From Ferruginibacter sp. (GTDB lineage Bacteria > Bacteroidota > Bacteroidia > Chitinophagales > Chitinophagaceae), in assembly GCA_037969135.1 (NCBI GenBank), contig JBBKWV010000167.1:1-51853 (forward strand): a DNA stretch of 51,853 bases. Reading direction: 5' to 3'. The translations under genes were made by a program, and so were the position numbers. Below, one piece after another: positions 1-19,263 of this stretch. The notes beneath the pieces are model-generated. The model had not been told where the DNA came from. It worked only from the letters and a program-made list of their open reading frames with translations, and did no database searches. Within the stretch, counting starts at the first letter, position 1. Each line of letters begins with the position of its first letter.

Positions 1-1151
1 TAATTAAAACCATCTGTTGGATTTATTTCAGCGGCAGCAGTTTGCCTGATAACAACAATTCTCGATGCACCGTTGCCGTTAGTCCAGTTGATATCCAACC
101 CATTGTTCATTACATTGGAGAGAATGATGTTGTTTGCCTGTGTTCCCGGTTCTGTATCCAGTACATTACCGGAAATATTGACTGTCGCATCCGGCGCACC
201 GCCTCCTTCACAATTAACAGTGGCACTAACGGCACCCAATGGGGCCGTTGATTTAACACGTACATAAATTGCTGTTGCATTTAAGGTTGCTGATGTGAAG
301 GAAACATCTACCGTAGAAGCATATCCGGTACCCATGGACAATGAAACTTCAATATCGGCAGAAGAAGCAGTTACTGAAATGTTATCGGGAAAGCCAGCCA
401 GGTTTGTTCCCGAAACGGTAAAACTCATTGGGGCAGATGTTACGCCAAAAACAGTATTTAAATTCGTGATATTCGGTCCTGCAGATAAAACCGGACCGGG
501 AGCGCCACAAGTAGCAATTGTGCTACCGCTGTTTCTTGGAACCGGATTTGTGATCACTTCAAAATCTGTAAGGTTATTGTCAGTATCCTGGCAGCCATTT
601 ATTTTACGCACTGCCCCGGTGCTAATAGAGAGCGCCGAAACGGCAGCACCTCCTTCGGCCAGATTTGCCGCACCCCAACCAACCAGATCGATCACATTTA
701 CAATGGGAAAAGTACATGGAGTTGCTGTTGCTCCACAACCCAATGCAGCGGCGTTATTTATCAATGCAACTTTACCGGCAGTTGCAGACAAACTCAGGTT
801 TGTTGTTACAAGATCTGCAGTTATCGGTAAATCTGCACCAGCAGTTCCTGCTGAGCCCGTCTGAATCAAAAGATAGGCCCCTGCAGGAATACTTGTGAGT
901 GCAGGAAATGCATAGATCTGGCTTGCAGTACCTCCGATTTGCCCTGCTGATGAACCATACTGCAGGGAATAACCACTGATGTCCTGAACAGCAGTACTTA
1001 TATTGTGTAATTCAACATAGTCATTTTTGTAGGTAACACCTGCTGTACTGCTCCCTCCACCAGAATATACCTGGCTGATAACAACAGTTGATGACTGACT
1101 GAATACAGAAAAACCAATGAATAAGGATAAAATAGTGTAAAGTAACTTCAT
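1..1151 (-). CDS. Partial secreted lamin-tail-domain (LTD) protein with Ig/FN3-like modules; runs off the left edge; not in ORF track
   Basis: Manual translation from ATG at 1151: MKLLYTILSLFIGFSVFSQSSTVVISQVYSGGGSS..NDYVELHNIS..DISGYSLQYGSS..IPAGAYLLIQ..DLVGWG..GCQDTDNNLTDF..PVPRNS..EPGTQA..LDINWTNGNGASRIVV. No stop before base 1. Aligns by eye with the N-terminus of 6495..8972. Confidence 0.9.
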   Translation of the reverse strand, partial: MKLLYTILSLFIGFSVFSQSSTVVISQVYSGGGSSTAGVTYKNDYVELHNISTAVQDISGYSLQYGSSAGQIGGTASQIYAFPALTSIPAGAYLLIQTGSAGTAGADLPITADLVTTNLSLSATAGKVALINNAAALGCGATATPCTFPIVNVIDLVGWGAANLAEGGAAVSALSISTGAVRKINGCQDTDNNLTDFEVITNPVPRNSGSTIATCGAPGPVLSAGPNITNLNTVFGVTSAPMSFTVSGTNLAGFPDNISVTASSADIEVSLSMGTGYASTVDVSFTSATLNATAIYVRVKSTAPLGAVSATVNCEGGGAPDATVNISGNVLDTEPGTQANNIILSNVMNNGLDINWTNGNGASRIVVIRQTAAAEINPTDGFN

Positions 1152-1239
1152 GATACAGGCTTTAGTCTATAAAAATAAATTTTTTATAGCAGAAATCCTT
1201 ATTCTGCATTTACTTACCTCAATCACATCTTAAAAGAGA

Positions 1240-2283
1240 TCAGTTTACTTTTTTTAGCAGGGTAACATATACCGGAAAGTGGTCACTATAGCCGTAGTTG
1301 TAGGTAGTGCCATCCCAGGTCCTTTTTGGATAACCTTTATATTTACCTGTTTGCTGAACAAGGAATTCGTGGTTGAAAATATTTGCTTTATAAAAATAAT
1401 ATCCCTTTTGTTCTTTATCGAGCCATGCACCAGAAATAACAACCTGGTCAAACAGACCCCATGCATCCTGGTATGCAATGGTTCCAATTCCTTTTTTATA
1501 AAAATCTACCCATGGATTGTAAATCCCGGATTCTTTTACTTCAGACAACTTTCCTTTTGTTCCCAAAGTTTTGGTCATACTCGGACTTGTGGGATCATCA
1601 TTCAAATCTCCCATGACAATTACTTTTGATTTCGGATTGATTGCCATCAAAGAATCAACAACTCTTTTATTTACTCCTGCAGCGGCAGCTCTTGCAGGGA
1701 TGGAACGTTCTTCACCACCTGATCTGGAAGGCCAATGGTTTACAAAAACATGAACTGTATCTCCGTCCATAATACCTTTTACATATAAAACATCCCGTGT
1801 AAAATAAGAGTCTTTAGATCCGCCAGGTAAAGTTACAAACAGCGCTTTACTGTATATCGGTGTAAAATATTTTGGATTATAGAGAAGTCCAACATCAATC
1901 CCTCTTTTATCGGGAGAATCGTAATGAACGAATTTTAATTTCCTGTTTTTTAAATTCGGATGACTGATCAAAGCATTGAGAACGGTATCGTTTTCAATTT
2001 CTGCCACTCCAAGTAATGAAAGTCCATCCGGATTGATATCTGTACCAATTTGGGCTATCACAGAAGATAGCTTTCCGATCTTATCCAGAAAAATGCGTGT
2101 ATTATAATGTCTTTCACTATTTGGCAAAAATTCTTCATCATCAACAATTGGATTATTGATAGTGTCATACAAATTTTCAAGGTTATAAAAACCAATCAAC
2201 GATGCATGGTAATTGCTTTTTTGTGCATAAGATCCTGATACTGATATTAATACAATAATAAGAGCGAAGAAAAATCTATTCAT
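1240..2283 (-). CDS. Secreted endonuclease/exonuclease/phosphatase (EEP) family protein
   Basis: Signal peptide; motifs YNLENLYD, AEIEN, NHWPS, MGDLND, LFDQ, YSDHFPV. Confidence 0.92.
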   Translation of the reverse strand: MNRFFFALIIVLISVSGSYAQKSNYHASLIGFYNLENLYDTINNPIVDDEEFLPNSERHYNTRIFLDKIGKLSSVIAQIGTDINPDGLSLLGVAEIENDTVLNALISHPNLKNRKLKFVHYDSPDKRGIDVGLLYNPKYFTPIYSKALFVTLPGGSKDSYFTRDVLYVKGIMDGDTVHVFVNHWPSRSGGEERSIPARAAAAGVNKRVVDSLMAINPKSKVIVMGDLNDDPTSPSMTKTLGTKGKLSEVKESGIYNPWVDFYKKGIGTIAYQDAWGLFDQVVISGAWLDKEQKGYYFYKANIFNHEFLVQQTGKYKGYPKRTWDGTTYNYGYSDHFPVYVTLLKKVN

Positions 2284-2303
2284 AAATTTTATTTAATAAG
2301 CGG

Positions 2304-2311
2304 CAAAGTTA
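2304..2311 (-). promoter_or_regulatory. Bacteroidota -7 promoter element (TAACTTTG) for the EEP/LTD arm
   Basis: Exact TAnnTTTG match 20 nt upstream of the EEP start. Confidence 0.6.
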
Positions 2312-2394
2312 TCTATATACGCGAGATTTGAATTAATTAAATATCAATAAAATGTTAATGGGCACTTTTTATGTTCAAAACCACTTTAAATTAA

Positions 2395-2402
2395 TACATT
2401 TG
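2395..2402 (+). promoter_or_regulatory. Bacteroidota -7 promoter element (TACATTTG) for the transporter arm
   Basis: Exact TAnnTTTG match 23 nt upstream of ATG 2426. Confidence 0.6.
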
Positions 2403-2425
2403 CTGTCTTTTTTAACAAAACATAT

Positions 2426-5008
2426 ATGACACCAAAACTTAAACATTGCTTGCTTATGATTGTGGTCTCGGGTTTTTTAATTCCGACAGCCTATTCACAG
2501 GTAGAGAAAGCTAAAGAAACATTACCTGTCAGGGACACTATTTATGAGGGTTCAAGAGACAATTTCCAGGACAATCTTCCGGTAATTTCATTGGATGAAA
2601 ATGATGGCGTGGATGGAAGTGCTCAAAATATTTCATCTCAGCTTGGCGCTGGCCGTGATCCATTTTTAAATGCAGCTACTTTTAAATTCAGTGCAGTAAG
2701 ATTTCGTATCAGGGGATATGATGCTGACCAGTTCAGTACTTATATCAATGGGATACCCATGGAAAACCTTGATAACGGGTTTACTCCTTACGGCCAATGG
2801 GGTGGGTTGAACGATGTGATGCGTAACCGCGAAAACTCTATGGGATTAAGACCAACCACTTTTGCCTTCGGGGAAAATGGCGGTTTAACCTCCTTTGATA
2901 CCCGTGCATCTCACCAACGTAAACAAACCAGCATTAACTATGCATTGTCTAACCGGAATTATGTACATCGCATGATGCTTACCCATTCTACCGGTTTAAA
3001 TAAAAAAGGGGTTGCATTTTCCTTTTCTGCATCACGCCGTTGGGCTGATGAAGGATTTACAGATGGAACCTACTATGATGGCTGGTCTTTTTATGCCGCT
3101 GTTGATAAACGATTTAATGACAGACATCTGTTATCCTTTGTTGCTTTTGCAACACCTACAGAAAATGGCCGTCAGGGTTCTTCTGTAACAGAAATGATTG
3201 AAATTGCCGGAAATAATTATTACAATCCTTATTGGGGATATCAAAATGGCAAAAAAAGAAATGCCAGTGTGGGCAAATCTTTTCAACCGGTGGGTATTTT
3301 AACCCACGACTGGAAAATTTCAGATAAATCCACTTTGGTTACGGCTGGTTCTTTCAGTTATGGTAAAAGAAGTACAACTGGATTGGATTGGTACAATGCT
3401 GCTGACCCAAGACCAGATTACTATCGCTACTTACCAAGTTATCAAAATGATCCTGTTTTGGCAGAAAGACTTAGGGAAGAACTTGGTTCAGATATAAACA
3501 AGCGTCAGATAAACTGGGATGGATTATACAACACCAATTACGGTGCTTATGAAGTATTTCACAATGCAAACGGTATTATAGGGAATGATTATTCCGGTAA
3601 AAGATCGCATTATATACTTGAAGAAAGAGTGATCAATACAACCAAGTATAATTTTAACTCAACATTTAATACAAATGTTTCTGAGAATATAACCTTTACT
3701 GCTGGTATGACTTACCAGTCGCAAAAGAATAATTATTACAAAAGAATCAATGATTTATTGGGTGGAGATTATTATGTTGATATTAACCAGTTTGGTGAAA
3801 GAGATTTCCCAAGCAGTCCAAGTGCAGGTCAAAATGACCTGAACAATCCCAACAGGATTTTATTAACCGGAGATAAATTCGGTTATAATTATGATATCGA
3901 TATTAAAAAAGGATCGGTTTGGTTACAGGGTGTATTTAAGTTCCGGAAGCTGGATATTTTTGTGGCCACTGAACATTCTTATACCAGTTTCTACAGAAAA
4001 GGAAATGTAAAGAGTGGTTTGTTTCCAAATAATTCCTATGGGAAATCTGATACGTATAATTTCTACAACTCAGCACTCAAAGGAGGTATAACATATAAGA
4101 TTGACGGACGCAATTATATTTTCGCCAATGGTTCTTATCAATCAAGGGCTCCTTTCTTTGAAAATGCTTTTATTGCACCAAGAACAAGGGATTTTGTGCA
4201 GGACAACCTTAAGTCGGAAGAAATCGTTTCTGTTGAAGGAGGATACGTGATGAATGCCCCGAAATTAAAATTAAGGGCAACTGGTTATTTTACCCAGTTT
4301 AAAAACCAGATAGATGTAATGACATTCTATCACGATGAATTAAGAAATTTTGTAAATTACGCTATCAGCAATATCGGAAAAGTGAATACAGGTATTGAAT
4401 TTGGTGCTGAAGCAAAAGTGTACAAAGGTTTGAGTGTTAATGCTGCAGCTGCAATAGGAAAGTATTATTACAATACCCGCCAGCTTGCAACGGTAACAGC
4501 TGATAATAGTGCAACGGTATTATCGAAAAATGAAATCGTTTATTCGAAAGATTTTTATGTACCAACACCACAACAGGCCTATACGATCGGATTGGATTAC
4601 CGTTCACCTAAATTTTGGTTTGTGAATGTAAATTTTAATTACTTTGATAAAATGTATTTGAATTTTAACCCGATTCGCAGAACTGCAGCAGCAGTTAACG
4701 GTGTGGATGAAGGTTCGGTATTATGGCATGATATTGTTGATCAGACAAAATTGAAATCACAATACTCACTGGATGCATTTGCCGGTTATTCATGGATGAT
4801 GAACAGGAAATTTAAAAGCATGAAGAAAAGAACATTTCTTGTATTCAATCTGGGTGTAAATAATATTCTGGATAACAGAGAAATCGTATCCGGAGGATTT
4901 GAACAACTCAGGTTTGATTTTGCAGAAAAGAACACAGAGAAATTTCCGGAGAAAAGGTTTTATGCATATGGCATTAATTTCTTTGCCAGCATGGGATTAA
5001 GATTCTAA
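2426..5008 (+). CDS. TonB-dependent outer-membrane transporter-like beta-barrel (non-SusC type)
   Basis: Signal peptide; plug-like FRIRGYD..YINGIPM..FGENGG; amphipathic beta strands; C-terminal ASMGLRF. Confidence 0.85.
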   Translation: MTPKLKHCLLMIVVSGFLIPTAYSQVEKAKETLPVRDTIYEGSRDNFQDNLPVISLDENDGVDGSAQNISSQLGAGRDPFLNAATFKFSAVRFRIRGYDADQFSTYINGIPMENLDNGFTPYGQWGGLNDVMRNRENSMGLRPTTFAFGENGGLTSFDTRASHQRKQTSINYALSNRNYVHRMMLTHSTGLNKKGVAFSFSASRRWADEGFTDGTYYDGWSFYAAVDKRFNDRHLLSFVAFATPTENGRQGSSVTEMIEIAGNNYYNPYWGYQNGKKRNASVGKSFQPVGILTHDWKISDKSTLVTAGSFSYGKRSTTGLDWYNAADPRPDYYRYLPSYQNDPVLAERLREELGSDINKRQINWDGLYNTNYGAYEVFHNANGIIGNDYSGKRSHYILEERVINTTKYNFNSTFNTNVSENITFTAGMTYQSQKNNYYKRINDLLGGDYYVDINQFGERDFPSSPSAGQNDLNNPNRILLTGDKFGYNYDIDIKKGSVWLQGVFKFRKLDIFVATEHSYTSFYRKGNVKSGLFPNNSYGKSDTYNFYNSALKGGITYKIDGRNYIFANGSYQSRAPFFENAFIAPRTRDFVQDNLKSEEIVSVEGGYVMNAPKLKLRATGYFTQFKNQIDVMTFYHDELRNFVNYAISNIGKVNTGIEFGAEAKVYKGLSVNAAAAIGKYYYNTRQLATVTADNSATVLSKNEIVYSKDFYVPTPQQAYTIGLDYRSPKFWFVNVNFNYFDKMYLNFNPIRRTAAAVNGVDEGSVLWHDIVDQTKLKSQYSLDAFAGYSWMMNRKFKSMKKRTFLVFNLGVNNILDNREIVSGGFEQLRFDFAEKNTEKFPEKRFYAYGINFFASMGLRF

Positions 5009-5048
5009 TGAATAAAAAAACACTTATAAAAATTTTAAAAAATAAATT

Positions 5049-6404
5049 ATGAACAAGATTTTTAAATTAATAACAGCGGTAATACTGATTGCTTCAATCG
5101 GCGTTTTCAGTGCATGTAAAAAATCATTTGATAATCCTCCGGGAGCTTCAGATCCTAATATTGTAGCCAATACAAGCATCAAAGCGTTAAAAGCTATGCA
5201 CACGACTGCAGGTGCATATGATGTTATCAGTACCGATATTATTATTTCGGGTATTGTAGTTGCCAATGATAAAAGCGGTAATCTGTATAAGCAATTATAT
5301 ATTCAGGATTCAACCGGTGGTTTGCAAATATTATTAGATGCAAACAGTTTATATGGAACTTATCCAGTTGGACGCAGGATCTATATCCGTTGTAACGGTC
5401 TTACTATAAGCGATTATAATAAAACAATGGAATTGGGTATAAAAGCTTTGGTTGCTGGTTTACCTTCTTTGGAAGCGATTCCTTCTAACCTGATCAGCAA
5501 ATATGTTGTGGGTGGTTCTTTGAACAATCCGGTTGTTCCGATCCCGGTTACATTTGCCCAATTGGGTGGTACTTCTACCGTGAATATGCAGGATAAGTAT
5601 ATCGGTACTTTGATTCAGTTGGATGGATATGCGTTCTCTGTACTTTCTGGTACTTATGCAGATACTTCAGTTTATAAAAGTACAGTGAACCGCGATATTA
5701 AGAATTGTGCCAATCAAACCCTGATCGTTCGTTCAAGTGCCTATGCAAATTTTGCTGCACGCCAGGTAGCACAGGGACGTGGAAAGTTGAATGCGATCTA
5801 TACCGTTTTCGGAAATACAAAGCAATTGATCTTGCGTGATATTGATGATGTTCAATTCAATGATCCATATGCTTGTCCTTTGCCGCCCGGAACATTGCTT
5901 TTACAGGATTTTGAATCAATTGGTGCAAATAACCTGACATTGACTTTACCAGGTTGGAAAAATATAGCAGAAGTTGGTGGAGTGCTTTATCAGAATGCTG
6001 TATTTGGTCCGGTTAAATGCGCTAAGATATCTGCTTTTGGTTCAGGTTCTTCAACTGCTACCAGTTGGTTGATTTCTCCGGCAATTAATTTAACAGGAGC
6101 AACTGCTCCGAATCTTAGCTTTACGCATGCTTCGGGATTTGCAACAGGTCCAACAACTTTAAAAGTGATGATTTCTACCAATTACGCCGGTAGCAATACA
6201 CCATCTACTTCTACATGGACGCAGGTTTGGCAAACGCTTGCCACAACACCCACAACCGGATTTTCTACTTTTGCAAGTTCTGGGGTAATTAATTTGTCAG
6301 CATATATTGGTCAGACTATTTATATCGGTTTCAAGTATGAAGGTGGTGATCCAACCAAAACAACTACCTATGAAGTTGATGACATAAAAGTATTGGCTCT
6401 TTAA
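5049..6404 (+). CDS. DUF5689-like surface lipoprotein with OB-fold-like repeats and a C-terminal beta-sandwich (choice-of-anchor J-like)
   Basis: Lipobox FSAC23-KKSFD; ISGIVVANDKSGNLYKQLYIQDSTGGL..YPVGRRIYI; RSSAYANFA; C-terminal QDFE..WLISPAINL..YIGFKY..YEVDDIKV. Confidence 0.8.
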   Translation: MNKIFKLITAVILIASIGVFSACKKSFDNPPGASDPNIVANTSIKALKAMHTTAGAYDVISTDIIISGIVVANDKSGNLYKQLYIQDSTGGLQILLDANSLYGTYPVGRRIYIRCNGLTISDYNKTMELGIKALVAGLPSLEAIPSNLISKYVVGGSLNNPVVPIPVTFAQLGGTSTVNMQDKYIGTLIQLDGYAFSVLSGTYADTSVYKSTVNRDIKNCANQTLIVRSSAYANFAARQVAQGRGKLNAIYTVFGNTKQLILRDIDDVQFNDPYACPLPPGTLLLQDFESIGANNLTLTLPGWKNIAEVGGVLYQNAVFGPVKCAKISAFGSGSSTATSWLISPAINLTGATAPNLSFTHASGFATGPTTLKVMISTNYAGSNTPSTSTWTQVWQTLATTPTTGFSTFASSGVINLSAYIGQTIYIGFKYEGGDPTKTTTYEVDDIKVLAL

Positions 6405-6426
6405 TCTATTATTAAAAACATTCAAG

Positions 6427-6469
6427 GATAAGCGCCATGCTATAATGATCATGGCGCTTATCTTTTTTT
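6427..6469 (+). terminator. Intrinsic terminator
   Basis: 13-bp perfect stem GATAAGCGCCATG/CATGGCGCTTATC followed by T7. Confidence 0.85.
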
Positions 6470-6494
6470 CGAATTTCAAAATTAAAAGCGGGTT

Positions 6495-8972
6495 ATGAAA
6501 AAAATATTTACGTTGTTTTTTATGCTTTCTGCATTCCTTTCTTACTCTCAGTCAACTACTTTGGTTATAAGCCAGTTGTACGGAGCAGGAGGAAATACAG
6601 GTGCATTGTTGGATGCTGATTACGTTGAATTACACAATGTATCCGGTTCTGCAATCAGTTTATCCGGATATTCTATTCAATATGCATCCTCAGCTGCAAC
6701 CGGTACCTGGACAGGAGTTTCTCCTCTTCCTGTTGCCAGCATTCCAGCCGGTGGGTATTATTTGATTCAAATGTCTGCATCTGGTGCAAATGGTGTTCCA
6801 TTACCTACTCCTGATTATGTGGCAAATCCTTCGATCGCAATGGCTGCAGCCAATGGAAGAGTTGCGTTGGTGAATGGTTTAGTTGCCCTTTCTGCCTGCC
6901 CGGCAACAAGTGCTTATGTTGATCTGGTTGGGTATGGCACGGCAACCTGTTTTGAAGGTACCGGACCAACAACTGCAATCAGTACGATCCTCGCTGCTTT
7001 TCGGAACAACAGTGGTTGTACGGATACAAACAACAATGCAGCAGATTTTACCATTGCTACTCCTGCTCCCAGAAACAGTGTTACTGCTATTTTTGCCTGT
7101 GGTGCAATAGCACCTTCACTAACAGTTACGGGTACAGTAACTGATTTTGGAAATATTTTTGTCGGTTCAAATTCTGTTTCTCAAACCTATAATATTTCCG
7201 GAGCAAACCTTACAGGTGCCCCCGGTGTTATTACAGTCACTTCTCCTTCAGTAGATTTTCAGGTATCAAATGATAACACAACCTGGGGAGCTACAACTAC
7301 CATTGCATATAGTTCCGCTACACTTGCAGCTACAGCTGTTTGGGTAAGATTCACTCCTCAGTCTGCAGGTCCTAAATCAGGTAATGTAAGCAATTTGGGT
7401 GGCGGCGTTTCCACGGCTGTTAATGTTGCTGTAAGTGGAAATGGCGATGTTCCCGTTACGCCGGTTTTATCTGCAACTACGCTTACTGCTTTTGGAAATA
7501 CCTGTTTGAACACAACTGCAGGACCCAATAGTTTTTCTATCAGTGGCATCAACCTGACAGCGACGAATATTACCGTTGGGCCTTTGGTTGGTTATAGTTT
7601 TTCCACAACATCAGGTGGAACGTATATGGCATCATTAGATTTAACGCAGCCTGGTGGAATTTTTGCTCAAACCGTTTTTGTCAATTTTACCCCTGTTGCC
7701 AATCAGTCATATAATGGCAATATCAGTGTAACAGGTGGCGGTGCCACAACAGTTGATGTTACTGCAGTAGGAACGGGTGCAAATAATCCTCCTGCGGTTA
7801 CAACAGGAACTGCAAGTGCTATTACAATAACAACAGCTACACTGGGTGGAAGCATAACCGATATTGGTTGTTCTGCAATTACTGCTTATGGTTTTGAATA
7901 CAGTTTAACAAGTGGATTCCCTAATGGTAGTGGAACAGCGGTTGCATCAACCAATCTGTCAACTGGTACTTTTTCGGCAAATTTAGCTGGACTTACTCCT
8001 GCTACTACTTATTACTATAAGGCATATGCAACAAATACCGGCGGTACCACATACGGTGCTCAACAGTCATTTACAACTGCAACTCCGGTATTAACTGCAA
8101 CAACATTAACCGGGTTTGGAAGTATCTGTTTGAATACCACTTCAACGGAAAACAGTTTTACTATTAACAGCACCGGATTAACGGCTGCGAATATAACAGT
8201 CGGGCCACTTACCGGTTATAGTTTTTCTGCAACGTCTACCGGAACTTATACTGCTTCTTTAAATTTAACGCAAGTTGGAGGTCCCTATACACAGGTAGTT
8301 TTTGTCAGGTTCACTCCGATTGCAATCCAATCGTATAATGGGAATATTCCAGTTGCCGGTGGCGGTGCAAATGCTATAAATGTAGCAGTTACCGGAAGTG
8401 GATATGATGCAAAACCTACAGTAGTTACAGGTTCTGCAGTTGTTAACAATCCCAATTCTGCAACAATGAATGGGATAGTGACAAGTATCGGTTGCAGTCC
8501 ACTTTCTTCATATGGTATTGAATACAGTGGTGTCAATGGATTTGCAAATGGACACGGTACAAAAGTTACCGGTTCTAATATTTCAGGTACAGATTTTTCT
8601 GTTACTTTAAATTCACTGGTACAGGCTACAAAATATTATTATAAAGCTTATGCAGTGAACAATGGGGGTATTTCTTATGGTTTACAAGATTCATTCACAA
8701 CTGATACAATCCCTTCAGGTTTGATCGTTTATTCTTCTCCTGTTGTACGTGGTGGTAGTTTGCATTATACTTTGAACAATATGAAACCTGGTCATTACCA
8801 AACCATGATATTTAACCAGGTAGGACAATTGGTTTTCCAGCGTGAAGTAATACTGCAAGTTAATTTCATTGACGACAATTTTGTTTTACCTTATCAATTG
8901 GGTACTGGTTTATATACATTACAGGTATTTAACCATGAATTCAAAATGAGTAAAGCATTTTTAATTTATTGA
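6495..8972 (+). CDS. Secreted LTD protein with Ig/FN3-like repeats and a probable T9SS type A C-terminal domain
   Basis: Signal peptide; LVISQLYGAGG..DYVELHN..LSGYSIQY..GCTDTNNNAADF..PAPRNS; two TxYYYKAYAxN modules; C-terminal IVYSSP..GQLV..GLYTLQV..KAFLIY. Confidence 0.85.
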   Translation: MKKIFTLFFMLSAFLSYSQSTTLVISQLYGAGGNTGALLDADYVELHNVSGSAISLSGYSIQYASSAATGTWTGVSPLPVASIPAGGYYLIQMSASGANGVPLPTPDYVANPSIAMAAANGRVALVNGLVALSACPATSAYVDLVGYGTATCFEGTGPTTAISTILAAFRNNSGCTDTNNNAADFTIATPAPRNSVTAIFACGAIAPSLTVTGTVTDFGNIFVGSNSVSQTYNISGANLTGAPGVITVTSPSVDFQVSNDNTTWGATTTIAYSSATLAATAVWVRFTPQSAGPKSGNVSNLGGGVSTAVNVAVSGNGDVPVTPVLSATTLTAFGNTCLNTTAGPNSFSISGINLTATNITVGPLVGYSFSTTSGGTYMASLDLTQPGGIFAQTVFVNFTPVANQSYNGNISVTGGGATTVDVTAVGTGANNPPAVTTGTASAITITTATLGGSITDIGCSAITAYGFEYSLTSGFPNGSGTAVASTNLSTGTFSANLAGLTPATTYYYKAYATNTGGTTYGAQQSFTTATPVLTATTLTGFGSICLNTTSTENSFTINSTGLTAANITVGPLTGYSFSATSTGTYTASLNLTQVGGPYTQVVFVRFTPIAIQSYNGNIPVAGGGANAINVAVTGSGYDAKPTVVTGSAVVNNPNSATMNGIVTSIGCSPLSSYGIEYSGVNGFANGHGTKVTGSNISGTDFSVTLNSLVQATKYYYKAYAVNNGGISYGLQDSFTTDTIPSGLIVYSSPVVRGGSLHYTLNNMKPGHYQTMIFNQVGQLVFQREVILQVNFIDDNFVLPYQLGTGLYTLQVFNHEFKMSKAFLIY
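7461..8702 (+). repeat. Intragenic tandem duplication, period 624 nt (208 aa)
   Basis: PVLSATTLTAFGNTCLNTT..NITVGPL..QSYNGNI..IGCS..YYYKAYA..SFTT starts at 7461 and recurs from 8085. Confidence 0.9.
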
Positions 8973-8990: not shown

Positions 8991-9022
8991 AAAAAGGAGA
9001 CTCAATTTTGAGTCTCCTTTTT
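8991..9022. terminator. Intrinsic terminator (symmetric)
   Basis: AAAAAGGAGACTCAA-TT-TTGAGTCTCCTTTTT. Confidence 0.9.
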
Positions 9023-17159: not shown

Positions 17160-18353
17160 ATGTTAAAAGGAAAAAAAATACTTGTAGGGATTACAGGCAG
17201 TATTGCAGCATATAAATCTGCCATATTAGTGAGGTTATTAATCAGGGCAGGAGCAGACGTGAAAGTGATCATGACATCAGCTGCATCGGGTTTTATTGCA
17301 CCCCTTACTTTGTCTACTTTATCAAAGAATGAAGTGTTAACTGAACTGTCTGACAATGATTCCTGGGCAAACCATGTAATGCTGGGAAGATGGGCAGATA
17401 TCATGCTGATAGCACCTTTGAGTTGCAACAGCCTGGCAAAAATGGCCAATGGGTTATGCGATAATTTATTACAGGCAGTATATTTATCTGCCACCTGCCC
17501 GGTGGTGGTTGCTCCGGCAATGGATGAAGATATGTGGAAGCATCCGTCTGTGAAAAATAATATTCAGCAAATTCTCGCATATGGAAATTATGTCATTCCT
17601 GTAGAGAATGGTGAACTCGCCAGCGGACTGAGCGGTGATGGGAGAATGGCAGAACCGGAAAACATCCTTACATGGCTGGAAGGTTTTTTTTTGAAAATTC
17701 GCGACCTGGCAGGTAAAAAAGTATTGGTTACTGCTGGCCCAACTTACGAGGCGATAGATCCTGTTCGATTTATCGGAAACCATTCCTCCGGTAAAATGGG
17801 AATCGCTTTGGCGGATGAATTTTATTCAAGGGGGGCAGAAGTTATTTTGGTCACAGGTCCGGTTTCAGAAAACCTTAATGGTAATTATAAAACCATTAAA
17901 GTTACTTCAGCTTCAGAAATGTTTAATGCATGTTTGCAAATATTCCCCGGAATGGATATAGCCGTTATGAGTGCAGCTGTAGCAGATTATACCATTGCAG
18001 ATCCCTCACAGGAGAAAATAAAAAAGAATGCGGATAAAATTAATATTGAATTGAAAAAAACAACAGACATTTTAAAGTTGATGGGGGAAATAAAGAGATC
18101 AAACCAGTTTCTTGCAGGCTTTGCACTTGAAACAAATAATGAAAAGGAATTTGCTTTAAAAAAACTGAATTCCAAAAATGCAGATATTATTGTATTAAAT
18201 TCTTTAAATGATGTTGCTGCAGGATTTGGACACGACACTAACAAAATCACTATTTTTGATAAAGCAGGAAATGAATATCCATTTGAAACAAAATCAAAAA
18301 CAGCGGTTGCAACAGATATCGTTAATACCATTCTAAAAATTTCTCATGCATAA
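17160..18353 (+). CDS. coaBC: Phosphopantothenoylcysteine decarboxylase/ligase
   Basis: GITGSIAAYK, PAMD, VTAGPTYEAIDPVRFIGNHSSGKMG, AAVADY, GFALET. Confidence 0.97.
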   Translation: MLKGKKILVGITGSIAAYKSAILVRLLIRAGADVKVIMTSAASGFIAPLTLSTLSKNEVLTELSDNDSWANHVMLGRWADIMLIAPLSCNSLAKMANGLCDNLLQAVYLSATCPVVVAPAMDEDMWKHPSVKNNIQQILAYGNYVIPVENGELASGLSGDGRMAEPENILTWLEGFFLKIRDLAGKKVLVTAGPTYEAIDPVRFIGNHSSGKMGIALADEFYSRGAEVILVTGPVSENLNGNYKTIKVTSASEMFNACLQIFPGMDIAVMSAAVADYTIADPSQEKIKKNADKINIELKKTTDILKLMGEIKRSNQFLAGFALETNNEKEFALKKLNSKNADIIVLNSLNDVAAGFGHDTNKITIFDKAGNEYPFETKSKTAVATDIVNTILKISHA

Positions 18354-19263
18354 AATAATATTGCTACTGGTTTTTTTTATTATGACCGGTTTGGTCAGGG
18401 CACAGGAACTCAATAGCAGGGTTACCGTTGTTACAACCCGTGTAGGAAACAATGTAAATAAAAATGCTTTCCGGACTTTACAGACCTCATTGAATAATTT
18501 TTTAAATAATCGGAAATGGACTGCTGAAACCTTTGCGCCGAATGAAAAAATTGATTGTAATTTTTTATTGAACCTGGAATCTACGGGTGAAATAAATGTG
18601 TACAAGGCGTCATTGACCATTCAGGCGGCCCGGCCTGTTTTTAATACATCTTATTTATCCCCGATCATTAATTTTAAAGACGATGACATATTGTTTAAAT
18701 ATGTTGAATTTCAGCAACTCGATTTTAATGAGAACCGGGTAAGCGGAACAGATCCGCAGGTGTCGAATCTTACAGCTGTATTTGCTTATTACGCCTATCT
18801 GGTTTTGGGGTTTGATGCAGCTTCTTTTGCGTTACACGGTGGTGATCTTTTTTTTCAAAAGGCCCAGAATATTGTAAATAATGCCCCGGATGGCAGGAAT
18901 ATATCGGGATGGAAGGCTTTTGACGGGATACGTAACCGTTATTGGCTTGTAGAAAATATGTCGAATAGCCGGTATGCCATTATGCATGATGTTTATTATA
19001 ATTATTACAGGCTGGTAATGGATAAGATGTACGATGATGAAAATTCGGCGAGAACAGAATTATTAAATGTGTTAAACCAGCTTGAAAATTTTAATAATGA
19101 GAATCCCAATAAAATGATTTCCCAGTTTTTTTTCCAGGGAAAATCAAATGAACTGATCAAAGTATTCTCCAAAGCAAAACCGCCAGAGAAAGCAAGAGCT
19201 ATTGAATTGCTTACCAAACTCGATCTTACCAATGCAGGGAAATATAAAGAGGAACTTAAATGA
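18346..19263 (+). CDS. DUF4835 family protein (T9SS-associated, PorD-like)
   Basis: Signal peptide then AQELNSRVTV; FLNNRKWT; ARPVFNTSY; AYYAYLVLGFD; position after coaBC. Confidence 0.8.
   Translation: MHKIILLLVFFIMTGLVRAQELNSRVTVVTTRVGNNVNKNAFRTLQTSLNNFLNNRKWTAETFAPNEKIDCNFLLNLESTGEINVYKASLTIQAARPVFNTSYLSPIINFKDDDILFKYVEFQQLDFNENRVSGTDPQVSNLTAVFAYYAYLVLGFDAASFALHGGDLFFQKAQNIVNNAPDGRNISGWKAFDGIRNRYWLVENMSNSRYAIMHDVYYNYYRLVMDKMYDDENSARTELLNVLNQLENFNNENPNKMISQFFFQGKSNELIKVFSKAKPPEKARAIELLTKLDLTNAGKYKEELK

What the first reader, a model, noticed from the sequence alone, without database searches (positions are those of the whole stretch)
1..8972. Candidate extracellular nucleic-acid capture/utilisation locus (PUL-like, without SusC/SusD)
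Seen: five adjacent genes, all exported, in two arms from back-to-back promoters: [LTD protein < EEP enzyme] and [TonB-dependent barrel > DUF5689 lipoprotein > LTD/T9SS protein]. There is no CAZyme, SusD or regulator. Known: ExeM/NucH-type extracellular nucleases fuse LTD, OB-fold and EEP domains in one chain. Here the same three modules appear as separate proteins around an importer. Inference: surface binding and cleavage of eDNA/RNA, then TonB-driven import of oligonucleotides as a P/N/C source or for transformation. From memory a related gene set in gut Bacteroides (ddb) has been tied to DNA breakdown; this needs verifying. The version with two LTD proteins and T9SS cargo may be undescribed.
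Basis: partly seen in the sequence, partly recalled or inferred. Interest (0 to 1): 0.82.

Follow-up and report, generated by a model that had tools for sequence, protein, structure and literature searches.

The report
Bacteroidota DNA importer with lamin-tail stalks
Three of these five genes are a sediment bacterium's copy of a recently described gene set that other Bacteroidota use to take in and break down DNA from outside the cell, and it likely does the same here; the two flanking secreted lamin-tail proteins are an add-on of untested function.

Summary
The five genes are real. The middle three are a divergent EEP nuclease, an outer-membrane barrel and a DUF5689 lipoprotein. They are homologues of DdbB, DdbC and DdbD of the Bacteroides DNA-utilisation locus (40/35/27% identity, same layout). 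Riemerella needs the DdbC/D homologues for natural transformation.

A nuclease faces the barrel in 25 of 25 genus loci: 17 EEP, 8 S1/P1. The downstream lamin-tail (LTD) protein is a non-catalytic stalk with a T9SS-like tail. It tracks the barrel within the genus (81 of 85 genomes that carry it) but is rare outside it. The upstream LTD gene fills a variable slot (1 of 25 loci).

Corrections: the EEP is probably periplasmic, this is not a split ExeM, the lipoprotein is the SusD analogue, a strong hairpin precedes gene five, and LTD binding to DNA is unsupported. Nutrition versus transformation is unresolved.

This scan noted similar loci twice in other genomes. Verdict: new variant of a known kind, modest interest.

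The parts
3..1151 (-). LTD1: secreted lamin-tail protein, N-terminal 383 aa only (cut by the contig start). Nearest full-length homologues are about 930 aa: LTD, Ig-like, FN3, an unnamed 300-aa domain, T9SS tail.
   Evidence: PF00932 52 bits; 68% identity over 381 aa to P0002/P0003; rest of the gene not found in the assembly
1240..2283 (-). DdbB-like EEP nuclease, 347 aa, SPI-like leader, probably periplasmic
   Evidence: PF19580 374.5 bits; 40% to the B. faecis homologue, best hit in this genome; N34, E36, E95, D226, N228, D279, D334, H335 invariant in 14 of 14 aligned
2304..2311 (-). Bacteroidota -7 promoter box (TAACTTTG) facing the nuclease
   Evidence: consensus TAnnTTTG as quoted in PMC6414381; a motif match, not a mapped start
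2395..2402 (+). Bacteroidota -7 promoter box (TACATTTG) facing the barrel
   Evidence: a motif match, not a mapped start
2426..5008 (+). DdbC-like outer-membrane barrel of TonB-dependent type, 860 aa, single copy in the assembly
   Evidence: 35% (BLAST) to 39% (aligned columns) to Bt1-type DdbC, E 5e-163; single copy
5049..6404 (+). DdbD-like lipoprotein, 451 aa: DUF5689 (predicted tandem OB folds) plus a C-terminal choice-of-anchor J jelly roll that resembles DdbE repeats; same domain set as Riemerella RA0C_RS04920
   Evidence: model pLDDT 88; jelly roll Z 15.7, rmsd 2.7 over 152 residues to a gingipain adhesin domain; PMC8459023
6424..6465 (+). Strong hairpin ending in a U-run between ddbD and LTD2 (terminator or 3' stabiliser)
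   Evidence: -23.3 kcal/mol, z -4.2, 0 of 200 shuffles as good; most relatives show a hairpin at this position
6495..8972 (+). LTD2: 825-aa non-catalytic stalk: LTD head, five Ig/FN3 domains, divergent T9SS-type C-terminal domain
   Evidence: model pLDDT 83.6, all-beta beads on a string
8991..9022 (+). Intrinsic terminator-like hairpin closing the locus before htpG
   Evidence: 14-bp stem; z -7.0

Best explanation
This is a Chitinophagaceae DdbB-DdbC-DdbD locus that likely imports extracellular DNA through an outer-membrane barrel, mainly as a nutrient, with two secreted lamin-tail proteins that are predicted to be non-catalytic accessories. Shown: homology, layout, co-conservation and intact nuclease motifs. 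Inferred steps: (1) secreted nucleases encoded elsewhere in the genome shorten the DNA; (2) the DdbD lipoprotein sits on the barrel as a lid and binds DNA with its OB folds; (3) the barrel moves fragments into the periplasm with TonB energy; (4) the DdbB-like nuclease cuts them there; (5) nucleotides go to salvage and DeoC, and some DNA may reach ComEA/ComEC. LTD2 is likely a T9SS-exported surface stalk that serves this machine in this genus, in the position DdbE holds in Bacteroides. Its ligand is unknown. LTD1 is an optional passenger.
For: DdbB/C/D homologues in the same divergent order. The Bacteroides locus is needed for DNA depletion, and purified DdbB degrades DNA (PMC12478041). A nuclease faces the barrel in 25 of 25 genus loci, 17 EEP and 8 S1/P1: an unrelated nuclease fold took the same slot, once by the quick tree. 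Across 130 genera of the family, barrel and PF19580 are both present in 60, both not found in 60, and discordant in 10. A second nuclease lies near 11 of 66 family loci and an LTD is fused to DdbD in 8 of 56. The stalk's tail domain occurs in 85 of 200 genus genomes; 81 have the barrel, 62 with the tail within 10 kb downstream on the same strand. The genome encodes three NucA-type nucleases, two endonuclease I proteins, one S1/P1 nuclease, DeoC and a 5'-nucleotidase domain. Barrel-DdbD complex prediction: weak support, score 0.46 against best control 0.00, partner pLDDT at least 84, runs agree in at least 92% of contacts; that band held 18 of 157 solved complexes and both passing mismatches of 215.
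Against: No experiment on this organism or family. [quoted passage not shown] The minimal triad and the DdbD domain set match the Riemerella transformation locus more than Bt1. B. thetaiotaomicron used DNA poorly as sole C, N or P source. No NupC-type nucleoside transporter was found in this 99.6%-complete, 311-contig assembly. The LTD heads carry 3-4 basic against 8-11 acidic residues. Of 9 DdbD-fused LTDs aligned, only 1 is of the same subfamily as LTD1/LTD2. A separate LTD protein lies near only 2 of 66 family loci. The co-occurrence counts are among kin and between linked genes, so they overstate independence.
Confidence: 0.58

Rival explanations
1. The same import machine serves mainly natural transformation: the barrel and lipoprotein carry double-stranded DNA to ComEA/ComEC, and the periplasmic nuclease trims it, as proposed for Riemerella.
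For: RA0C_RS04915 and RS04920 deletions abolish transformation (PMC8459023). The window lipoprotein has the same DUF5689 + DUF5017 + anchor J set, and its best NCBIfam hit is NF052645, M949_1556 family, 215 bits against a cut-off of 475. The genome holds ComEC, DprA, a ComEA-like protein with three HhH matches and NamZ/DUF1343. No DdbA/F-type gene is in the locus.
Against: ComEC is in 124 of 130 family genomes but the barrel in only 62, and a Pv-like barrel adds only one further genome, so the two are not coupled. [quoted passage not shown] Relatives repeatedly add degradative nucleases beside the barrel.
Confidence: 0.27
2. The core handles DNA, but the lamin-tail proteins are ordinary adhesins or biofilm surface proteins that settled next to it by descent and have no role in DNA capture.
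For: LTD2 is all Ig/FN3 beads, with fold hits to structural and adhesion proteins. Its head is swapped for an unrelated domain in 6 of 17 relatives. A hairpin separates it from ddbD. The upstream slot also takes a PHP hydrolase or an M43 peptidase. LTD1-type genes occur away from the barrel (L184, L185, L187). The ExeM LTD was dispensable for clearing DNA on plates (PMC6085458).
Against: Only 4 of 86 barrel-less genus genomes keep the stalk's tail. LTD, anchor J and ExeM-type modules recur around this barrel in other genera, fused or free. Loss of the LTD slowed ExeM in vitro.
Confidence: 0.4
3. The locus remodels extracellular DNA in biofilms, or imports another phosphodiester polymer such as RNA, rather than feeding on DNA.
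For: In B. thetaiotaomicron VPI-5482 a related operon, BT3560-3563, was found in a biofilm screen (PMC8851478). S1/P1 nucleases prefer single-stranded DNA and RNA (own knowledge).
Against: That phenotype was traced to the secreted DNase BT3563, a DdbF homologue, which this locus lacks. DdbB is a shown DNase.
Confidence: 0.1

Closest known systems
ddbABCDEF DNA-utilisation locus, Bt1 subtype, Bacteroides thetaiotaomicron (Sharan et al., PNAS 2025, PMC12478041)
   Same: Divergent ddbB | ddbC ddbD; 40%, 35% and 27% BLAST identity to the B. faecis copies, each the best hit in this genome; PF19580 and PF18942 shared
   Different: No DdbA or DdbF nuclease and no separate DdbE in the locus; a DdbE-like jelly roll is fused to DdbD; barrel below the paper's 50% subtype threshold; two T9SS-type LTD proteins flank the core
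Riemerella anatipestifer transformation genes RA0C_RS04910-RS04915-RS04920 (PMC8459023; linked to ddbBCD in PMC12478041)
   Same: Minimal nuclease-barrel-lipoprotein triad; lipoprotein with DUF5689 + DUF5017 + choice-of-anchor J
   Different: The window barrel has no N-terminal carboxypeptidase-regulatory-like domain hit; NF052645 scores 215 against a cut-off of 475; no LTD proteins are mentioned in the passages read; Riemerella sequences were not compared directly
ExeM/NucH extracellular nucleases (PMC6085458; NF033681)
   Same: LTD, OB-type and EEP modules all occur in the locus
   Different: The EEP is of another family (24 bits against 300), the LTDs are of another subfamily, and the parts are likely in different compartments
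SusC/SusD polysaccharide-utilisation loci
   Same: Barrel followed by a lipoprotein lid, hydrolase, surface accessory protein
   Different: No SusC or SusD family hit, no regulator, nucleases in place of glycosidases

Membership tests
ddb loci (PMC12478041) | Anchored by a DdbC homologue | tested here: met
   35% over 889 columns, E 5e-163, to the B. faecis barrel, which shares a 90% cluster with P0122; P0122 differs from the Dataset S4 Bt1 sequence at one position that I saw by eye
ddb loci (PMC12478041) | DUF5689 lipoprotein directly after the barrel | tested here: met
   PF18942 201 bits, 40-bp gap
ddb loci (PMC12478041) | Nuclease in the locus (DdbB, SPI, divergent) | tested here: met
   40% identity, catalytic motifs invariant; leader judged by eye
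ddb subtype Bt1 | More than 50% identity and 75% coverage to Bt1 DdbC | tested here: not met
   35-39%: same type, not this subtype
ddb subtypes Bt2, Pv1, Pv2 | More than 50% identity to that subtype's DdbC | not tested
   Those sequences were seen only in the paper's supplement and were not aligned; Pv-like barrels from the same order are 22-25% identical to the window barrel
ddbABCDEF (full Bt1 locus) | Surface nucleases DdbA and DdbF and separate DdbE in the locus | tested here: not met
   Best hits of DdbA/F lie on contigs C62, C150, C297; DdbE matches only the C-terminal domain of the lipoprotein. Sequence left of base 1 is not assembled.
ddb loci (PMC12478041) | DNA depletion and nucleobase release depend on the locus | not testable with these tools
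   needs a culture and mutants
Riemerella-type transformation system | Lipoprotein with DUF5689 + DUF5017 + anchor J next to the barrel | tested here: met
Riemerella-type transformation system | ComEC, DprA, HhH protein and DUF1343 protein in the genome | tested here: met
   not discriminating, since the B. thetaiotaomicron control also rings. ComF and RecA were not searched.
Riemerella-type transformation system | Barrel-dependent natural transformation | not testable with these tools
   needs experiment
ExeM/NucH nuclease | EEP domain of the NF033681 family, fused to LTD and OB in one chain | tested here: not met
   24.2 bits against 300; separate genes
SusC/SusD PUL | SusC- and SusD-family proteins | tested here: not met
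   no such Pfam or NCBIfam hit at E 0.1
T9SS type A cargo (LTD2) | C-terminal sorting domain PF18962/TIGR04183, and a T9SS in the genome | tested here: inconclusive
   No library hit; a local T9SS-tail profile scores it weakly (E 3e-4); its own profile matches short domains in many large ORFs across the family; close homologues P0062 and P0076 carry PF18962; SprA and PorD present; no full-length PorU found, one candidate is cut at a contig end

The most novel reading that the evidence does not exclude
LTD2 is a dedicated surface antenna of the DNA importer: a T9SS-exported stalk with interchangeable heads that catches extracellular nucleic acid away from the cell and passes it to the DdbD lid. 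That would give bacterial lamin-tail domains a first defined ligand, and show an aerobic sediment lineage rebuilding the ddb system from T9SS parts with swappable nucleases (EEP or S1/P1), possibly also making it naturally competent through a TonB-type barrel.
Probability: 0.22. Interest if true: 0.65.

Novelty: new variant of a known kind. Interest (0 to 1): 0.37.

Why it matters
The system type is in print, so the locus is not a new mechanism. It shows that the ddb importer is common in free-living Chitinophagaceae (62 of 130 genera sampled), outside the gut and pathogen settings where it was studied. It offers the minimal triad for asking whether this barrel feeds or transforms, which the source paper leaves open. 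The role of bacterial lamin-tail domains is unresolved (PMC6085458), and here a non-catalytic LTD protein is tied to one machine, which makes that question testable with a single deletion and a binding assay.

Tried and rejected
Recovering the sequence left of base 1: the window is the whole contig; no other contig holds the rest of LTD1; contigs from four runs of one sediment sample matched in short pieces and gave no loose end at base 1. No RNA holder was listed.

Sequence search of solved structures: no meaningful hit for the EEP, the barrel or the lipoprotein.

The idea that LTD2's divergent tail docks on the barrel throughout the family: dropped. Strong matches to that tail were found in only 2 of 130 family genomes, so it is a lineage trait. 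It was not tested by complex prediction.

The idea that genomes without this barrel carry a Pv-like one instead: only 2 strong hits in 130, one in a genome without the Bt-type barrel.

The sigma-70 promoter scan was at chance level, 32 against 30.7; it is the wrong consensus for this phylum.

The wide fold search covered only the C-terminal domain of the lipoprotein. The OB assignment rests on the model's secondary structure, a weak Foldseek hit to p204 HIN-dsDNA (5z7d, rank 38, E 3e-5) and the paper.

The unnamed 300-aa domain of LTD1's homologues: no Pfam, NCBIfam or Atlas hit and no conserved His; it was not folded.

The barrel tree is the quick tree; the careful search did not finish.

Literature searches that found no paper on this arrangement. 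The one paper listed (Tannerella vesicles) was not opened. The library lacks most subscription journals.
Full report
Setting. The window is the whole of contig C167 of a 3.39-Mb, 311-contig assembly rated 99.6% complete. Names on protein hits point to Ferruginibacter-like Chitinophagaceae. Near-identical short contigs occur in one sediment metagenome sample, which may be the source and is not independent support. The genes identified to the right are housekeeping, starting with htpG and recJ.

Observation. The 142-bp gap between nuclease and barrel holds one TAnnTTTG box per strand, and such boxes recur at similar places in relatives. That consensus is quoted for Bacteroidetes in PMC6414381 (two passages read). 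A 16-pair hairpin ending in a U-run separates the lipoprotein gene from LTD2, and most relatives have a hairpin there whatever gene follows. LTD2 is therefore probably read at a lower level or separately.

The core is DdbB-C-D. I read parts 1-4 of 5 of Sharan et al. (PMC12478041) and Dataset S4, and searched its supplements for four terms. A motif search fetched 29 named Bacteroidales loci. The B. faecis locus has the six-gene layout, and its barrel clusters at 90% with one named B. thetaiotaomicron. Against the B. faecis proteins the window nuclease, barrel and lipoprotein are 40%, 35% and 27% identical, each the best hit in this genome. The lipoprotein's last 165 residues match repeats of DdbE, so it joins DdbD and a DdbE-like domain. 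Passages of PMC8459023 give that same domain set for Riemerella RA0C_RS04920, which with its barrel is required for transformation. The paper's subtype screen needed over 50% identity, so this barrel would not have been counted as Bt1, although Ferruginibacter genomes were in its database.

Conservation. In the first draw of genus relatives, 25 of 25 loci with an upstream gene have a divergent nuclease: 17 EEP and 8 S1/P1. The seven S1/P1 loci in the quick tree form one group with 99% support, so this is one replacement event. Over 130 genomes from 130 genera of the family the barrel was found in 62 and PF19580 in 68, 60 shared. Among all 66 barrel loci, the EEP lies divergently within two genes in 46 of the 63 with upstream sequence, and DUF5689 follows in 56 of 63. 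A second nuclease is near in 11. DUF5689 was found in 102 of 201 genomes across the phylum. The EEP keeps the GDxN and SDH motifs and the N-terminal Asn/Glu in 14 of 14 sequences; that these are the EEP catalytic set is my knowledge of the superfamily.

The lamin-tail proteins. LTD2 models as an LTD head, five Ig/FN3 domains and a terminal beta domain, with no catalytic domain. A gene of this family follows ddbD in 17 of 20 genus loci; 11 have an LTD and 6 have an unrelated head instead. In 200 genus genomes its tail was found in 85 and the barrel in 114; 81 have both, 4 the tail alone and 82 neither. In 62 of the 81 the tail lies within 10 kb downstream; in the other 19 it is on another contig. 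Outside the genus a separate LTD protein was near only one family locus, but 8 of 56 family lipoproteins carry a fused LTD, mostly of the ExeM-type subfamily. LTD1 fills a variable slot: 4 of 25 loci have any co-oriented secreted gene there and 1 of 25 an LTD gene. A targeted look at 20 loci, some chosen because they had LTD1 hits, found the five-gene layout in L170 and L174 and, with S1/P1, in L173; L040 has it too. In L186 the LTD1-type gene remains beside an ExeM-like nuclease with no barrel. So the layout recurs but is a minority form. Against DNA binding: both heads are poor in basic residues. PMC6085458 (passages) says the role of bacterial LTDs is unknown, and that the ExeM LTD aids activity in vitro but is dispensable on plates.

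Mechanism. Import is well supported by homology to two genetically tested systems. The lid-on-barrel step rests on the paper's model and a weak pass here (0.46 against 0.00). I place the EEP in the periplasm because it has an SPI-like leader and no T9SS tail, and the paper does so for DdbB. Outside cleavage would fall to nucleases elsewhere in the genome. I favour nutrition over transformation because ComEC is nearly universal in the family while the barrel is in half, and because relatives keep adding degradative nucleases. The Riemerella-like minimal layout and the competence genes keep transformation open, and the two uses are compatible. The abstract of PMC8383284 reports that tonB mutations lower Riemerella transformation, one of them through iron. 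Passages of PMC8851478 tie a related operon to biofilms through its secreted DNase.

Novelty. The kind is known. My searches found no paper on ddb loci in Chitinophagaceae, on LTD/T9SS accessories to them, or on the S1/P1 swap; the library is incomplete, and I did not view figures or the SI appendix text beyond a term search. Two earlier reports of this scan describe similar loci in other genomes. I class this as a new variant of a known kind, interest 0.37.

Noticed in passing
L042:1136-1996, L043, L044, L045, L047, L048, L049, L068: An S1/P1 nuclease replaces the EEP in the divergent slot in 8 of 25 genus loci; the seven in the tree form one group.
   Followed up: yes
P0003 residues 452-755 (homologue of window 3-1151): An unnamed domain of about 300 aa with no Pfam or Atlas hit; 143 relatives found, present in two or three copies in 1,360-1,580-aa T9SS proteins, some with DUF5017.
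   Followed up: partly
L031:14193-14915 and most genus loci: A PolB-type 3'-5' exonuclease-domain gene (PF10108) converges on the nuclease arm directly in 16 of 25 loci; it was not found in this assembly and may lie in the gap left of base 1. Contig C211 ends in the OMP gene that precedes it in relatives.
   Followed up: partly
L031:10762-14181, L033:3550-6960, L040:1027-4293, L052:12157-15258: The slot behind the nuclease also takes a T9SS PHP-type metallohydrolase, an ExeM-like nuclease or an M43 peptidase.
   Followed up: partly
L101, L105, L113, L115, L118, L124, L125, L157, L056: DdbD lipoproteins with several DUF5689 units and a fused C-terminal LTD.
   Followed up: partly
L062:8360-13203, L063:4624-10707: Pv-like barrels in other families of the order sit next to a T9SS endonuclease I, or a DUF5689-PLD T9SS protein plus a small LTD protein.
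   Followed up: no
L052 (G019), L053 (G017): The barrel gene is in pieces while its neighbours look intact; assembly error or decay.
   Followed up: no
L108 (G269:C13), G372:C30: ComEC lies about 6 kb and 12 kb from the barrel in 2 of 62 family genomes.
   Followed up: no
G000 C144:2-3484, C90:3631-4920, C277:1534-2331, C62, C150, C297: Six other nuclease genes in the genome, most with signal-peptide-like leaders; one is an endonuclease I fused to an ExeM-type LTD.
   Followed up: partly
window 18346-19263; G000 C148:7251-7817: T9SS PorD is in the window; the only PorU-like N-terminus found is cut at a contig end.
   Followed up: no
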